A stretch of DNA of 64,000 nucleotides from Octopus sinensis. Lineage: Eukaryota. How positions within the stretch are numbered: the stretch's first letter is position 1; each line of letters opens with the position of its first letter. This document shows, piece by piece, positions 23,239 through 49,501 of the stretch. The stretch lies in NCBI RefSeq assembly GCF_006345805.1, contig NC_043005.1, positions 109,639,382 to 109,703,381 on the forward strand, written 5' to 3'. The translations under genes were made by a program, and so were the position numbers. Below the pieces are notes generated by a model, which did no database searches, had not been told where the DNA came from, and saw only the letters and a list, made by a program, of their open reading frames with translations.

Positions 23239-24780
23239 ATCAGGTCGAATCGAAAGCGTTTTCATACTTCAAGCTTTAATTAATTGTTCAAAGTACACAC
23301 AAATAGCATTTATTCATCAAGCTATATGCTGTCATAATCTATTGTCTATTGCCAATGTTAAATAATAATAATAATAATAAAAACATTGTGTACAGTGCTC
23401 AGGTGCACTACAACTCACCTAAAGTGTATGTATAATCAGGTGTAGTTTCGGCGGATTTCGGAAAGCATGAGGGCCTTAAAGGATGCAGTGTCATGGCAGT
23501 CAACAACTGACGCAGGCAGTTTGTTCCATGCTTCAGCAACTCTGAGCGTGAAAAAATGTTTCCGAAAGTCATGGGAGCTGTGTTGTTTTCTGACTTTGTA
23601 GGCATGTCCACGTGTGTTAGACACATGAAAATCAAAAAGGTGTTCAGTGTTGTTGTTGGTGAGGTGGTTGATAACTTTGTGGGTGTTTACCAAGTCCATC
23701 GCCAGACGCCGGAGCTTCAGTGAATCCATGCCCAGGGAAACAAGGCGCTCAGAGTATGGTAGGTGCTTGATGGAGGGTATGCATTTGGTTGCACGTCTCT
23801 GAACAGATTCCAGGAGGTCAATGTTGTACCGGAAGCTCAATTTGACACCCATACCATTTGGCTGGTTTAAAGACAAATCACTCACTGCCCCCATTTTCAA
23901 TTTTGACCACATACTTAAACCTCTATCCATGCAGGAAATTGAGTCATGGCTTGGAAAAGGAGGTAATCCGATGGCAGGGTGAGGCAGCCCTTCTAGCCCC
24001 TTGTGTTCCTCAAGTTTGCACTTGATCACATTGGTTGTGGGGGCTAGGGCAATGCCATGCTGTAGAAGTGTGTGTCTTGAATTGACCAATGCTGGGTAGT
24101 GGACTTTCAAAGCATCATATATTTACTGCATTCGTTTAGTGTTCACAGCATAACCATCTGGGACAAGCTGGAAGTGCAACATCTTGGAATTCAACAAAAC
24201 ACATAACATGACCTTCTGTTGATACTGGCCTTGTTTGACAACAGGTTCTGAAGCTTGGTCAGAATGAAGCCACTGTCTTATCTTATCAGGAATACAAAAA
24301 TAGATACATTTTTCAGCCCCAGTCATAATTCAATGCCAAAAACAGGCATTTTGAGAATTTGTCAGCTATTATTTTCAAATGTTCACTCATCATTGAGCCT
24401 GCTCATTGGTCAGTTCACAAGGAGCTTTTTTTGACGGCCCCTGATCATGTGGCTGAGTTTATAGAGGTGTTGATTTGTGATGCTTTGTGAAAGCCATGTC
24501 CAGCTGACATTGTACAAGTGCTTGTGCTGGCTGTTGTTAAGCTATTTCAAGTGAGGACTCATCTTCCAAAAGAGGTCTCCCTGACCTTGTCTTGTTTTTG
24601 ACGCCGGTGTCACATTCCTTCAAATGGCTGAGTCAGTTTTGTACCAAATGCTTGTTGACAGTTCCTAGGCCTTCCATATCATTAATTTCTTTTAGTGCAT
24701 CTCTTACACTCAGTTCTTTCTTCCACAGATGGCATAAAATGGCTCAAATTACAGATTTTTCACTACAGTTATCAAAGTTG
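23239..24780 (-). pseudogene. Near full-length mariner transposon relic, interrupted by a CR1 LINE
   Basis: AILCHLWKKELSVRDALKEINDMEG...RSGRP, IMTGAEKCIYF, KVMLCV, YPALVN...LLQHG, LPHPA, SDYLLF, then HWQ*TIDYDSI*LDE* beyond the LINE; TIR-like end at 23239-23268. Confidence 0.85.
23360..23818 (-). mobile_element. CR1/L2-group LINE, 5'-truncated 3' end
   Basis: DLLESVQRRATK...LPYSERL...TRGHAYK...FFTLRVAEAWNKLP; short 3' UTR and (TTA)n tail; 7-bp TSD caatgtt at 23353-23359 and 23819-23825. Confidence 0.9.
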
Positions 24781-33277: not shown

Positions 33278-33332
<55 letters not shown>

Positions 33333-33382
33333 CACATATATATATATATGTATATATGCATGTATATATATATATGTATATA

Positions 33383-33426
<44 letters not shown>

Positions 33427-33639
33427 TCAATATAGGGTGGCAAAAAATTTTGTAGAATTTTTTTGCCACCAGCGGCCTAGTGGAAAAAATTAAATAGTCA
33501 TAGACCATTTTTAAGTTCAACATCACATCAGGAACGGCCATAATAGGCCATTCACCCACTAGAAATAACAGCCAAAGCTTCCCGCAAATAAACATCAATT
33601 CCGTAAACCAGGAGAAAATTAAAAAACATTTACCCTGTA

Positions 33640-33745
33640 ATTTCTTATACGATGCACCGTTTCATCTACTGTTTAATGGTAAACTAACCTGATTAATTAA
33701 ATCAAGCCAATCTTCCATAGGCCCTTAGAATCATCAGTAAGAAAT
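33640..33745 (-). ncRNA. Type I hammerhead ribozyme (mirror copy)
   Basis: Reverse complement of 33858-33964 with the core intact. Confidence 0.75.
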
Positions 33746-33857
33746 AGCAAGTCGGAACAGATATTTTCACGAGGCATTTCCGACCCTGCCTCGGCAATAT
33801 CTGACCTAAAATTTTCAAATCATCGCACTCGCGCCAAATATCTGTTCCGACTTGGCT

Positions 33858-33964
33858 ATTTCTTACTGATGATTCTAAGGGCCTATGGAAGATTGGCTTG
33901 ATTTAATTTAATCAGGTTAGTTTACCATTAAACAGTAGATGAAACGGTGCATCGTATAAGAAAT
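33858..33964 (+). ncRNA. Type I hammerhead ribozyme
   Basis: Stem I atttctta/taagaaat; CTGATGA 33866-33872; stem II tcta/taga with a U.U at 10.1:11.1; GAAA 33941-33944; near-palindromic stem III acggtgcatcgt; GTA site 33954-33956. Confidence 0.75.
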
Positions 33965-34080
33965 TACAGGGTAAATGTTTTTTAATTTTCTCCTGGTTTA
34001 CGGAATTGATGTTTATTTGTGGTTGAAGCTTTGGCTGTTATTTCTAGTGGGTGAATGGCCTATTATGGCCGTCCTTGATT

Positions 34081-34146
<66 letters not shown>

Positions 34147-34311
34147 ATAGGCATGTATAATATATGTATATATGTATGTGTATATATATTATATATATGT
34201 ATATATATATATATATAATGGGAAGTTTATGAAAATAGACAAAAGACAAAGGCAGGTGGAGTACAAACAAACAACTGTATTAGTATGTCGCTCAGGAATA
34301 AATTAAACAAG

Positions 34312-34469: not shown

Positions 34470-34480
<11 letters not shown>

Positions 34481-34701
34481 ATATATGTTTGTGTGTCTGT
34501 GTTTGTGTCCTCCCAACATCGCTTGACAACTGATGATGGTGTGTTTACGTCCCCGTAACTTAGCAGTTCAGCAAAAGAGACCAATACAATAAGTACTAGG
34601 CTTACAAAGAATAAGTCATGGAGTCAATTTGCTCAACTAAAGGCGGTGCTCCAGCATGGCCACAGTCAAATGACTGAAATAAGTAAAAGAGTAAAGAGAG
34701 T
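34470..34701 (+). mobile_element. SINE family A, 3' half
   Basis: Match to family body and tail. Confidence 0.85.
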
Positions 34702-36330: not shown

Positions 36331-36656
36331 CTCTTTTACTCTCTTACTCTTTTACTTGTTTCAATCATTTGACTGCGGCCATGCTGGAGCACCGCCTTTA
36401 GTCGAGCAAATCGACCCCGGGACTTATTCTTTGTAAGCCCAGTACTTATTCTATCGGTCTCTTTTGCCGAACCGCTAAGTGACGGGGACGTAAACACACC
36501 AGCATCGGTTGTCAAGCAATGCTAGGAGGACACACACAAACACACACATATATATATATATACGACAGGCTTCTTTCAGTTTCCGTCTACCAAATCCACT
36601 CACAAGGCATTGGTCGGCCCAGGGCTATAGCAGAAGACACTTGCCCAAGATGCCAC
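36331..36656 (-). mobile_element. SINE family A, 5'-truncated
   Basis: Reverse-complement match. Confidence 0.9.
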
Positions 36657-42397: not shown

Positions 42398-43527
42398 GGC
42401 AATGAGCTGGCAGAAACGTTAGCACATCAGGCGAAATGCTTAGCGGTATTTCATCTACCGTTACGTTCTGAGTTCAAATTCCGCCGAGGTCAACTTTACC
42501 TTTCATCCTTTCGGGGTCGATAAATACGTACCAGTTACGCACTGGGGTCGATATAATCGACTTAATCCGTTTGTTTCTCCTTGTTTGTCCTCTCTGTGTT
42601 TAGCCCCTTGTGGGTAGTAAAGAAGTAGGTATTTCGTCTGCTGTTACGTTCTGAGTTCAAATTCCACCGAGGTTGACTTTGCCTTTCATCCTTTCGGGGT
42701 CCATTAAATAAGTATCAGTTACGCACTGGGCTCGATATAATCGACTTAATCCGTTTGTTTGTCCTTGTTTGTCCTCTCTGTGTTTAGCCCCTTGTAGTAT
42801 TTCGTCTGCTGTTACGTTCTGAGTTCAAATTCCACCGAGGTTGACTTTGCCTTTCATCCTTTCGGGGTCCATTAAATAAGTATCAGTTACGCACTGGGCT
42901 CGATATAATCGACTTAATCCGTTTGTTTCTCCTTGTTTGTCCTCTCTGTGTTTAGCCCCTTGTGGGAAGTAAAGAAATAGGTATTTCATCTGCTGCTACG
43001 TTCTGAGTTCAAATTCCACCAAGGTCGACTTTGCCTTTCATCCTTTCGGGATCGATAAATTAAGTATCAGTTACGCACTGGTGTCGATATAATCGACTTA
43101 ATCTGTTTGTCTATCCTTGTTTGTCCTCTCTGTGTTTAGTCCCTAGTGGGTAGTAAAGAAATAGGTATTTCGTCTGCTGTTACGTTCTGAGTTCAAATTC
43201 CACCGAGGTCGACTTTGCCTTTCATCCTTTCGGGGTTGATAAATAAAGTACCAGTTACACACTAGGGTCGATATAATCGACTTAATCCCTTTGTCTGTCC
43301 TTGTTTGTCCTCTCTGTGTTTAGCCCCTTGTGGGTAGTAAAGAAATAGGTATTTCGTCTGCTGTTATGTTCTGAGTTCAAATTCCGCCGAAGTCAACTTT
43401 GCCTTTCATCCTTTCAGGGTCGATAAAGTACCAGTTACACACTGGGGTTGATGTAATCAACTTAATCCCTTTGTCTGTCCTTCTTTGTCCCCTCTAGGTT
43501 TAGCCCCTTGTGGGCAATAAAGAAATA
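42398..43527 (+). mobile_element. SINE family B tandem array (1 full plus 5 head-truncated units)
   Basis: Units start at 42398, 42628, 42797, 42980, 43164, 43348; period 184 bp for the last units. Confidence 0.95.
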
Positions 43528-45397: not shown

Positions 45398-47700
45398 ACT
45401 TTAGGCCCATCACTCTGCTTAATGCAGACTTGAAAATTTTGGCCAAAGTTGCTAGCCAAGAGGTTGGCGCTTGTCATCGAGAAACTGGTCGACAAGGCGC
45501 AAACATTGCGCCGTGCCAGGCCGGACCCATCCATGACAACCTCCATCTGATGCGCTACATCATAGACAGGGTAGTTAACGAACCTGGCATGGGTGGGGCC
45601 CCTGATCAACTTGGATCAATCAAAAGCCTTTGATAGGGTGACCATCGATCTTGAGGCAGTCCTGAGAGCGGCTGGTTTCGGTCCCGTCTTCCGCGGCTGG
45701 ATAGCTGCCTGTACAGAGGCATCCGTTCGGTAATTCGCGTAAATGGAAACATCTATCGAGACCTTTCGACATTGCACGTTCGGTCCGTCAGGGATGCCCC
45801 CTCTCGGCGCTTCTATACGTATTGACTCTGAGCCACTACTGCGGAAGCTGGCGACTCTAAGGGGCATCCCGCGAGAATTGGATGCGGGACGAGCGTGTCT
45901 GCATACGCGGGACGACGTCACGGTCATAGTGTCTAGCCACGAGCACATCGAGCTGGTCGGCGAGACACTGAAAAACTACGAAGCGTTGACAGGAGCGAAA
46001 ATCAACCGGGAAAAGTCAGTGGCTTGCTGCGACTAGGCACCTGGAGAAGCAAGCCCATGCCGTCCACCAGCGCCTCCGTCGTGGGACGCTGGACCGACGG
46101 CCCGGTGAGTTGCTCGGGGTCTGGTTTGGTCCGGACCTCCAAGTGGAGAAGAACTGAACGAGATAACGAGTAGGGTGGTGACTCTCGCCGGCAATGGGCC
46201 GAGAGGAAACTGTCCCTAAAAGGCGAGCGGAGGTGGCGAACACGTACATCGCGTCCGTCATCTACTACCGCCTGACCGTCGTACCTTGTCCCACCCTACC
46301 ATCACCAAACTACAACGCATCCTCTTTCGCTTCTTGTGGAAAGGAATGCGTCCCGATGGTCAGGCGATCCATTTGCTGTCAACAACCCGTTAAAAGGAGG
46401 GCTGGGCATGCCGTGGTTGATGATGCGCAGACACGCGCTGAGACTGCGACATCTCTGGCTCTATGTAGACGACGTGAACAGGTGTGGTCGCCGTTTGTGA
46501 GGCACGCTTTCCCGCAGCTCGTCTCCATGACCGAACTGCAGTCGTGATCAAAAAGAGGCCGAGGAAGGGCGAATGGCACCCGCGAGTGTCGCGTTGCTCT
46601 CAAGCAAGTCTGCCGTCCTGGGTCGACCTTAAGTGACTTCAACACAACCAAAGCATATAGGGGTTTAGTGGAGGGGAGGTACGACGACGAGCTCGGGGCG
46701 AACCTGGACGTCGACGAGGAGTACCTGACCCGCCTGTTCGGGACGACTTTCGGGCCAGGCCCATGGACAACTTCCAGAGATCCTTGGCCTGGCAGTGCTA
46801 ACACCGAGAAGCGCTACCCGTTCGGATAAGCTCTACAGACACGGCTCGAAAACACGGGGCGACCTGCCCAGATGCGGTCAGAGCGACGAAACCGTTCTGC
46901 ACGCACTCGTTCAGTGTCCAACAATTTCCGACCTGTGGGCTTATGTCGAACAACTGCTGTCACGTGTGGGACGAGTCGGTTTATCAGCTGAGTCTATCGT
47001 CAATATTGTCCGCCTCCTTCCTTCAACGGGAAGGAAGGCTATTTTCATCATCTTGTGGCTATGGCGAAAGAATGTATCTGGTGGAGACGCGTCTGAAAGG
47101 ATTGGAGACAAACACTTTCCTCTCTGGTCAATCTCTCATCAACTTCTTCAAGTACCACTTGAAAAGGAAGTGAGAGTAGAGAGGCAAGTTTTCTAGCGAA
47201 GTTTTAAAAAAGATGGGTGAATGTTGCAAGAATGGCACGTATGAATGACGAAGCCACCTTGAGCATAGTCCTATGAACCCAGAAATCGAAAACAGAGAGT
47301 TACTTATTTGCAAAAAAAAAAAAAAAAAAAAAAAAAGAAATATAAAATGTGACTTCATTGACCGAGGTTACCGTGGTCTTTTCCGTAGGCTTTTCTTTCC
47401 CGGGTAACCTCACCTGTCCTCCCCTTTACACTTCATATTGACATTTCTGTGATAACGATCCTTTGATCATTTTTTTTTTTTTTTTTTTTTTTCTTCTCTC
47501 TCCCCTTTTTTTTTTTTTTTTTTTTTTACCGACCCCCCTTTTTTTTGTCCTCTTTCTCTCCTTTCGATCCCTTTTGATCGAACCTCCCCCTTCCTATTTT
47601 TTTTTTTTTTTTTTTTTTTTTAATACCTTCCAAAAGAAAAGCTCTACCTTGTAATTTGTTCTATCTGTGTGCAGCCCTGTGTGGCTAATAAAGAAACATA
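45398..47700 (+). mobile_element. Tx1/L1-clade non-LTR retrotransposon, 5'-truncated (RT, C-terminal Zn finger, 3' UTR)
   Basis: Frameshift-corrected [81 protein letters not shown]; stop ~47276; AATAAA at 47687-47692. Confidence 0.92.
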
Positions 47701-48440: not shown

Positions 48441-48525
48441 TATACTGGATAACTGATATCCCATAGTGGATTACCCTCATAACCCCTATCTTACTTTGTA
48501 CTATATATATATATATATATATATG

Positions 48526-49050
48526 AAATAGTGTACATTTAAACACAAGAGAAATTACCTTTACCAGGTAATTTTACATGCTAGAAGAGGCAGACAAAAA
48601 TGACCAATACCACATTTAAGAGCAATTTCAAAGGGAATGGAAAATAAAAACTTCTTAACTCGTTATATTTTTATGGTTATACCTAGGTTTCAAATTTTTT
48701 AGCAAATAAAATAATTTACCAGGCGAAATTCTCATCAGTAACCATGCCATAACATTAACACATAATTTAGAAATGAATAACATGTGTCTCATCATTATAT
48801 GTTATAATTTTTCAAATTCACCGCGCAAGTGCAGTTTCAGTTGGCAGCACATGAGAAATGCTGAACTGATCTTCGAAAGGCTAAAATCATATACGTAAAA
48901 TATGTAGGGTAGTGAATATTTTTAGAAATTTCCCTACCAGTGGCCTAGCATGTATAAAAAGTCAATAGACAACATATTCTCAATATAAAATAGTATACAT
49001 TTAAACACAAGAGAAATTACCTTTCACAGGTAATTTTAAATGATAGAAGA
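48526..49050 (-). mobile_element. Retrozyme-like / Penelope pLTR-like element: 462-bp unit plus 63-bp terminal direct repeat
   Basis: Direct repeats 48526-48588 and 48988-49050 (5 mismatches); internal hammerhead; (TA)n on the left, SINE A on the right. Confidence 0.75.
48673..48745 (-). ncRNA. Type I hammerhead ribozyme
   Basis: Minus strand atggtta CTGATGA gaattt...aaattt GAAA cctag GTA taaccat: 7-bp stem I, 6-bp stem II, palindromic stem III acctaggt. Confidence 0.85.
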
Positions 49051-49052
49051 TA

Positions 49053-49501
49053 TAGGCGTAGGAGTGGCTGTGTAGGCGTAGGAGTGGCTGTGTAGGCGTA
49101 GGAGTGGCTGTGTAGGCATAGGAGTGGCTGTGTGGTAAGTATCTTGCTTACCAGCCACATGGTTCCGGATTCAGTCCCACTGCGTGGCACCATGGGCAAG
49201 GGTCTTCTACTATAACCTTGGGCCGACCAAAGCCTTGTGAGTGGATTTTGTAGATGGAAACTGAAAGAAGCCCGTCGTATATATGTATATATGTGTGTGT
49301 GTTTGTGTGTCTGCGTTTGTCCTCCCAACATTGCTTGACAACTGATGCTGGTGTGTTTATGTCCATGTAACTTAGCGGTTCGGTAAAAGAGGCCGATAGA
49401 ATAAGTACTAGGCTTACAAAGAATAAGTCCTGGGATCGATTTGCTCAACTAAAGGTGGTGCTCCAGCATGGACACACTCAACTGAATGAAATAAGTAAAA
49501 G
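49053..49501 (+). mobile_element. SINE family A with four tandem copies of its first 20 bp
   Basis: taggcgtaggagtggctgtg at 49053, 49073, 49093, 49113. Confidence 0.9.

What the first reader, a model, noticed from the sequence alone, without database searches (positions are those of the whole stretch)
33421..34085. ~245-bp-arm palindrome with one hammerhead on each strand
Seen: near-perfect inverted arms (33522-33766 / 33836-34085) around a 69-bp spacer with more GC; the ribozymes face outward from the centre. A transcript in either direction contains one sense hammerhead and its antisense. Inference: read-through RNA would form long dsRNA that sequesters the ribozyme and could be an ADAR or Dicer substrate (A-to-I editing is extensive in coleoids), while transcripts starting in the spacer would self-cleave. 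The simplest origin is fold-back/template switching during Penelope-type integration, as inverted pLTRs are known.
Basis: partly seen in the sequence, partly recalled or inferred. Interest (0 to 1): 0.75.

Follow-up and report, generated by a model that had tools for sequence, protein, structure and literature searches.

The report
Head-to-head hammerhead retrozyme insertion
The palindrome is one of hundreds of insertions of a 487-base non-coding repeat that carries a predicted self-cutting RNA motif and sits head-to-head in TA repeats; its two ends nearly always stop at two different fixed sites, which suggests it is likely pasted by a Penelope-type retrotransposon enzyme copying the RNA twice at once, not a special regulatory hairpin.

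Summary
In detail: arms 33522-33766 and 33836-34085 (242 of 245 aligned bases identical), each with an outward-facing type I hammerhead motif. It is not a unique device. It is one insertion of a 487-bp tandem repeat (non-LTR retrozyme type) with at least 619 copies, and the 'spacer' is ordinary repeat sequence. In 179 loci picked by one end only, 137 are head-to-head with one end at site A and the other at site B, about 100 nt apart; none is strictly A+A or B+B. The centre varies. In 39 of 134 two-armed loci neither arm nests in the other, so single-strand fold-back cannot be the general origin. Two primings from the two target strands fit. Inner arm ends pile up 2.5-fold just 3' of the predicted cleavage site. 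Ribozyme stems covary. Inverted copies and a 30-40-bp tail are known for Penelope-like elements; the strict end pairing, the 100-nt tail and the pile-up were not in the passages I read. This scan has noted the same architecture before on other DNA of this genome. Not shown: cleavage, transcription, editing, the partner enzyme, or this junction in independent reads.

The parts
33288..33421 (.). (TA)n target tract, left
   Evidence: TRF array 33288-33421
33421..33839 (-). Left (B) arm: one colinear piece of the 487-bp unit, m-3 to m422; RNA-sense 3' end at fixed site B against (TA)n
   Evidence: 98% to a natural unit cut from L026; exact B junction occurs 619 times in G000
33421..33521 (-). About 100-nt 'tail' between sites B and A, present on one arm only; holds a hairpin at 33436-33470
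   Evidence: sites 103 nt apart in a natural array
33522..33766 (-). Part of the left arm mirrored by the right arm
33638..33746 (-). Type I hammerhead motif of the left arm; CUGAUGA 33737-33731; predicted cut between 33648 and 33647
33767..33835 (-). 'Spacer': unit positions about m350-m418, copied in the left arm only
33836..33839 (.). Inversion junction, 4-nt overlap AAAT shared by both arms (m422 joined to m349)
   Evidence: row L001
33836..34085 (+). Right (A) arm: unit m349 to m99; RNA-sense 3' end at fixed site A against (TA)n
   Evidence: 99% to the unit; exact family A junction occurs 465 times in G000
33857..33965 (+). Type I hammerhead motif of the right arm: stem I 33858-33865 with 33957-33964, CUGAUGA 33866-33872, about 68-nt stem II domain with U.U at its base, GAAA 33941-33944, self-complementary stem III 33945-33954, predicted cut between 33956 and 33957
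34084..34217 (.). (TA)n target tract, right
   Evidence: TRF array 34084-34217

Best explanation
This is one genomic insertion of a 487-bp non-coding tandem repeat with one hammerhead motif per unit (a non-LTR retrozyme-type element), likely written into a (TA)n tract by a borrowed Penelope-type reverse transcriptase/endonuclease. Shown: two arms joined 5' to 5', both RNA-sense 3' ends facing the target, one ending at site B and the other at site A about 100 nt upstream, with a variable centre. Inferred: the enzyme nicks both target strands; one strand primes at B and the other at A on the same template. The template is most likely a unit-length circle that can be lapped several times. The two cDNAs stop, in excess where the ribozyme has opened or blocks the template, and are joined by short homology or template jumping. 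The palindrome with a hammerhead on each strand is then a by-product whenever both cDNAs run past the ribozyme.
For: Family: 317 matches in 40 scored of 1317 candidates, with a 486-487-bp period; 465 exact A and 619 exact B junctions, control patterns 0. Census of 179 loci anchored on one end (180 clusters): 137 A+B, 28 one-armed, 9 with one fixed and one other end, 6 open, 0 A+A, 0 B+B; (TA)n on both flanks in 163 of 180 (one flank by construction). Of 134 two-armed loci, 39 cannot come from one cDNA folding back and 6 share no sequence between arms. Arms of one locus differ by 0.8% against a median 4.7% to other loci (110 loci), so they are not two separate insertions. Inner ends coincide within 15 nt in 44 of 134 against a shuffled mean of 10.3, maximum 20. 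Ends in m204-229 number 44 against 17.4 expected, with the predicted cut at m228|229; 0 of 500 simulations reach this; just beyond the cut (m230-255) there are 12 against 16.2. The excess holds with coincident loci removed (22 against 12.0). 27 rare alleles are fixed in all units of 16 of 43 long arrays, 20 of them in both arms, and 380 of 425 passages run on past the cut site. Stems covary: 96% of cells paired, 7 pairs with two-sided change, slid controls 31-43% paired. Stem III stays self-complementary in both main variants (111 and 9 loci). RT plus C-terminal GIY-YIG ORFs ending in (TA)n exist in G000. A purified PLE protein cleaves and extends both strands and starts at two internal sites that bound the tail (PMC11167929, parts 1-2 read).
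Against: No autonomous partner was identified: the unit has no significant likeness to 25 of 147 GIY-YIG loci (best E 0.8). 95 of 134 loci are nested and so also allow fold-back, and the 44 coincident centres fit self-priming as well. The pile-up overlaps an A-rich stretch and the base of stem I (7 ends at exactly m220), so stalling or microhomology could explain it without cleavage; the stem I strand itself (m221-229) has 12 against 5.8, p 0.016. Other peaks exist (m46-60 and m481-487, likely BLAST boundary effects; m301-315). Alleles fixed across units would also result from a homogeneous linear source array. The pairs-with-two-sided-change measure was reached by 67 of 500 shuffles, and the aligned copies were selected for an intact core. 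One locus is nearly A+A (L041, A with m112). In the related second family the same two end sites appear but pairing is not strict: by my reading, 4 A+B against 3 same-type-like loci (L238, L244, L252). Cleavage, circles and transcription are untested.
Confidence: 0.75

Rival explanations
1. Fold-back or self-priming: one cDNA (or an antisense template) folds on itself and copies back, and the second end is set by endonuclease resolution at site A.
For: 95 of 134 loci are nested, including this window's. 44 centres coincide within 15 nt, many at palindromic words or local hairpins. PMC3846280 (passages) reads junction palindromes as self-priming; PMC8557442 (passages) ascribes the tail to endonuclease resolution.
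Against: 39 of 134 loci are not nested in either direction and 6 share no sequence between arms. Several coincident centres have no overlap or carry 3-5 inserted letters (L143, L090, L109, L124).
Confidence: 0.14
2. The locus is a selected regulatory RNA: read-through makes long dsRNA for ADAR or Dicer that silences the ribozyme, and spacer-initiated RNA self-cleaves.
For: The fold is predicted. Any such locus inside a transcript would form dsRNA (inference).
Against: 56 of 134 two-armed loci have a whole hammerhead in both arms, 31 in one and 47 in none: a continuum expected from variable cDNA length. The centre is not conserved and the spacer is plain unit sequence. The locus is 98-99% like young sisters.
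Confidence: 0.04
3. Assembly artefact from fold-back long reads.
For: No listed contig bridges this junction in two lays over 7 different runs. The 5 gap letters are all losses in one arm, as sequencing errors could be.
Against: The flanks are not mirrored. The arms end at two family-fixed sites and are asymmetric. Contigs of runs X5 and X7 hold many other arm-to-arm joints, 15 shown and 13 more not shown (table 5), as expected from sister inversions.
Confidence: 0.04
4. A MITE or foldback DNA transposon with terminal inverted repeats.
For: Inverted ends, TA target, high copy number.
Against: The two ends differ by a fixed 100 nt. The centre and length vary (10th to 90th percentile 229-2668 bp). 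There are one-armed 5'-truncated copies, tandem units and a covarying ribozyme.
Confidence: 0.02

Closest known systems
Metazoan non-LTR retrozymes (Cervera and de la Pena 2020, PMC7229834, passages and part 3 of 6 read; Li et al. bioRxiv 10.64898/2026.07.22.740005, part 1 of 5 and passages read)
   Same: Non-coding tandem units, one type I hammerhead per unit, G+C under 45%, dispersed monomers to multimers, U.U at the base of stem II as in axolotl HHR_Amex2, self-complementary stem III.
   Different: The unit is 487 nt (reported range about 170-400), stem II is an about 68-nt extended domain, and insertions are head-to-head with two fixed ends. 'inverted' occurs 0 times in PMC7229834 and only in a reference title in the preprint. 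Cleavage and circles are not shown here.
EN+ Penelope-like element insertions with inverted pLTR and tail (PMC8557442 and PMC3846280, passages read; PMC11167929, parts 1-2 of 4 read)
   Same: Inverted 5'-truncated copy head-to-head with the main copy, a tail at one end only, AT-rich or (TA)n targets, two fixed ends, palindromes at some junctions, a hammerhead upstream of the start sites.
   Different: No ORF. The tail is about 100 nt rather than 30-40 and is on exactly one arm in 137 of 137 strictly classed loci with two fixed ends. Inner ends cluster next to the ribozyme cut, whereas PMC11167929 found cleavage dispensable in vitro and no RNA-seq reads ending at the cut.
L1 twin priming (recalled, not from a call)
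   Same: Two target-primed cDNAs from one RNA joined by microhomology into an inversion.
   Different: Here both start sites are fixed and internal, arms often overlap and lap the unit, and there is no poly(A).

Membership tests
Non-LTR retrozyme | Dispersed tandem repeats of a short non-coding unit, G+C under 45% | tested here: met
   487-bp period, up to about 10 units, 37% G+C; no long ORF in the window's piece
Non-LTR retrozyme | Type I hammerhead core in the units | tested here: met
   337 intact-core matches in 121 of 179 loci (many loci are too short to hold one); covarying stems; not detected by Rfam
Non-LTR retrozyme | Unit size about 170-400 nt | tested here: not met
   487 nt; a descriptive range in PMC7229834, so read as a size variant
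Non-LTR retrozyme | Self-cleavage of the RNA | not testable with these tools
   Only indirect: pile-up of inner ends beside the predicted cut
Non-LTR retrozyme | Expression as circular RNA | not testable with these tools
   Only contigs were offered; lap-like allele sharing is indirect
EN+ Penelope-like element (autonomous) | ORF with RT and GIY-YIG endonuclease | tested here: not met
   No ORF in the window's piece of the unit; such ORFs lie elsewhere in G000
PLE-mobilised insertion | Inverted 5'-truncated copy, head-to-head | tested here: met
   137 of 179 loci strictly A+B inverted
PLE-mobilised insertion | Tail at one end between two fixed end sites | tested here: met
   Sites A and B 103 nt apart; longer than the published 30-40 bp
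PLE-mobilised insertion | Sequence shared with the pLTR of an autonomous partner | tested here: inconclusive
   None in 25 of 147 GIY-YIG loci, 1.5 kb each side
PLE-mobilised insertion | Target-site duplication | not testable with these tools
   Cannot be read inside (TA)n tracts
MITE / foldback DNA transposon | Identical terminal inverted repeats and fixed internal sequence | tested here: not met
   Ends differ (A and B); centre variable

The most novel reading that the evidence does not exclude
Penelope-type integration is an obligately asymmetric twin-priming reaction: one enzyme dimer on one ribozyme-made RNA circle primes the two target strands at two different fixed sites. The genome keeps a fossil record of ribozyme cleavage during reverse transcription, as arms that stop together beside the cut site even when their lap counts differ (L047, L074, L079, L174). 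Self-priming would then not be the source of PLE inverted repeats, and the hammerhead would set insertion length.
Probability: 0.4. Interest if true: 0.65.

Novelty: new variant of a known kind. Interest (0 to 1): 0.42.

Why it matters
How Penelope-like elements make their inverted repeats and tails, and what their hammerheads do, is stated as open in the papers read (PMC8557442, PMC3846280, PMC11167929). A young, ORF-less family with hundreds of insertions gives counts that separate the models and exact predictions for the existing in vitro assay: starts at m99 and m-3, one per target strand, and stops beside m228. It also ties retrozymes to PLE machinery by insertion structure rather than by sequence. 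The locus itself is one ordinary copy.

Tried and rejected
Rfam: no hammerhead hit. Sequencing runs: no RNA holder listed as on record; only contigs were available, which cannot show strand, starts, level or editing. The window's junction was not bridged in any listed piece (most pieces are not shown and a hole proves nothing). A>G rows also stand in DNA-type runs, so they were not taken as editing. Partner search: one Pfam accession was not in the library; the GIY-YIG search gave PLE-type ORFs without likeness to the unit, and my strict hammerhead scan found a motif in only 1 of those 25 loci. Recurrence of the centre: rejected. 'Partner arm is the closest sequence' held in 74 of 110 loci and was not better than the nearest other arm (p 0.46), so it shows a shared subfamily only. 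No host exon was evident among ORFs of 120 aa or more in 20000-50000, which does not exclude an intron. Paper searches for Penelope + twin priming + inverted + retrotransposon (2 papers, listing only) and octopus + hammerhead ribozyme (5 held, 4 listed) showed nothing on this family; some searches gave the papers cited. Subscription papers and supplements were not seen and may describe such structures. Look-up of earlier notes by sequence gave nothing. Rows dropped: L045 and L046 (duplicates of L044). The first script on loci failed on orientation and was redone.

Full report
Observation. Each holds CUGAUGA, a long stem II, GAAA, a self-complementary stem III and GUA inside an 8-bp stem I, facing outward. 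Rfam does not detect it. Both sides are (TA)n tracts.

What it is. A DNA search of the 2.7-Gb own genome gave 317 matches in 40 scored of 1317 candidates, many in tandem at 486-487 bp. Mapped on a natural unit from L026 (coordinates m; m1 = window 33425), the window is two pieces: 33421-33839 is unit m-3 to m422, and 33836-34085 is m349 to m99 inverted, with a 4-nt overlap. The spacer is therefore plain unit sequence. The unit is 37% G+C and has one hammerhead motif. An intact core was found 337 times in 121 of 179 loci. In 45 distinct copies chosen for an intact core, 96% of stem cells pair and 7 pairs change on both sides, in stems I, II and III; slid controls pair 31-43%. Two of the five shuffle measures gave no support (67 and 497 of 500), and related copies inflate the others. 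Stem III is fully self-complementary in both main variants (111 and 9 loci), and the swap sits in what would be the monomer's loop, which suggests cleavage as a dimer (inference). U.U at 10.1:11.1 is found in 26 of 121 loci; the axolotl HHR_Amex2 has the same mismatch and cleaves, better as a dimer (PMC7229834, part 3).

Insertion census. Exact junctions of (TA)n with site A (m99) and site B (m-3) occur 465 and 619 times; reversed controls give 0. I fetched loci for the first 100 listed of each, on contigs C1-C3, merged overlaps and dropped two duplicates, leaving 179 loci anchored on one end only. Strict classes in 180 clusters: 137 A+B inverted, 28 one-armed, 9 with one fixed and one other end, 6 open, no A+A and no B+B. 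By eye five more are A+B (L111, L151, L170, L174, L192) and one is nearly A+A (L041). Both RNA-sense 3' ends face the target. The centre varies freely. Median length is 713 bp. A whole hammerhead lies in both arms in 56 of 134 two-armed loci, in one arm in 31 and in neither in 47, so the window's form is the common outcome when both copies run long enough.

Mechanism. In 39 of 134 loci neither arm is contained in the other and 6 share no sequence, so one cDNA folding back cannot make them. The arms of a locus are as alike as the closest copies elsewhere (0.8% against a median 4.7%), so they are not two unrelated insertions. Inner ends coincide within 15 nt in 44 of 134 (shuffled mean 10.3, maximum 20) and arm lengths correlate (rho 0.46; 0.34 without coincident loci). 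Part of the coincidence arises at local hairpins and palindromic words, where BLAST extends both arms. Of 294 arm ends, 44 fall in m204-229 against 17.4 expected, directly 3' of the predicted cut at m228|229, and the rate falls below average beyond it; 0 of 500 simulations reach this window score. The excess remains with coincident loci removed (22 against 12.0) and after the first lap (14 against 6.8). An A-rich stretch and stalling at stem I are not excluded. 380 of 425 passages continue past the cut, and 27 rare alleles are fixed in all units of 16 of 43 long arrays, 20 of them in both arms. This fits laps round one unit-length circle, but also a homogeneous linear source. My reading is twin priming by a Penelope-type enzyme at two fixed RNA sites, with joining of the two cDNA ends. 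Both sites read UUGAUU, then 3-4 nt, then AU, about 17 nt 3' of a hairpin.

Partner. [quoted passage not shown] The 25 loci examined, of 147 matches, share no sequence with the unit. The partner is not identified.

Second family. Window 48525-49045 is a related, older family (461-bp unit, global score 79.5 against a shuffled maximum of -7; 2837 candidates, 40 scored) with ends at the matching two sites, but its pairing is not strict in the 30 loci seen. This limits how far the rule can be generalised.

Reads. Only contigs were offered and no holder is on record as RNA. Contigs of runs X5 and X7 hold many arm-to-arm joints as expected from sister inversions, but no listed piece bridges this window's junction. 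Transcription, editing and small RNAs remain untested.

Comparison. Retrozymes are known (PMC7229834, passages and part 3; bioRxiv 10.64898/2026.07.22.740005, part 1 and passages). Inverted copies, tails of 30-40 bp and microsatellite targets are known for PLEs (PMC8557442 and PMC3846280, passages). Two start sites and extension of both strands were shown in vitro (PMC11167929, parts 1-2). I did not find the strict one-of-each pairing, a 100-nt tail, the non-nesting test or the pile-up at the cut in those passages or in searches; supplements and subscription papers were not seen. Earlier notes of this scan describe the same architecture at other places in this genome. My reading was written before that look-up; the allele test was prompted by it.

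Verdict. A real feature and one ordinary copy of a retrozyme-type family, whose insertion statistics make an open question on Penelope integration testable. New variant of a known kind; interest 0.42.

Noticed in passing
window 48525-49045 (-): One-armed insertion of a second, related hammerhead repeat family (461-bp unit, short self-complementary stem III; CUGAUGA at 48738), ending at the A-equivalent site in (TA)n, with its other end running into a 20-bp tandem repeat (49053-49133) and a SINE-like repeat.
   Followed up: partly
L140, L173, L193: Whole two-armed insertions repeated in tandem (orientation ++-++- or +--+--), suggesting later duplication through the TA tracts.
   Followed up: no
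L210 (= L009) left arm: A unit with the same internal deletion (m35 to m277) alternates twice with full units.
   Followed up: no
L095, L108, L054, L114 junctions: Templated insertions of 11-27 nt copied from nearby unit sequence at the inversion junction, as in template jumping or polymerase-theta joining (label recalled).
   Followed up: no
L105, L138, L139, L198: Four one-armed copies stop at exactly m220, the base of hammerhead stem I, and join (TA)n through TA.
   Followed up: partly
L217, L218, L227 and G000 copies with 781-aa frames: Young Penelope-like family (RVT_1 plus C-terminal GIY-YIG) ending in (TA)n, with a long trinucleotide-rich 3' region; candidate source of enzyme.
   Followed up: partly
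L044, L045, L046 (G000:C1 81.9-82.2 Mb): The same insertion with the same flanks three times: segmental duplication or assembly redundancy.
   Followed up: no
window 42445-43527: Six tandem copies of a 184-bp unit (TRF).
   Followed up: no
window 34475-34694 and 36344-36563: Two inverted copies of a 220-bp SINE-like repeat, 88% complementary, 1649 bp apart.
   Followed up: no
window 23436-24122 (-) and 45400-47200: ORF fragments that look like decayed LINE reverse transcriptase ends (by eye).
   Followed up: no
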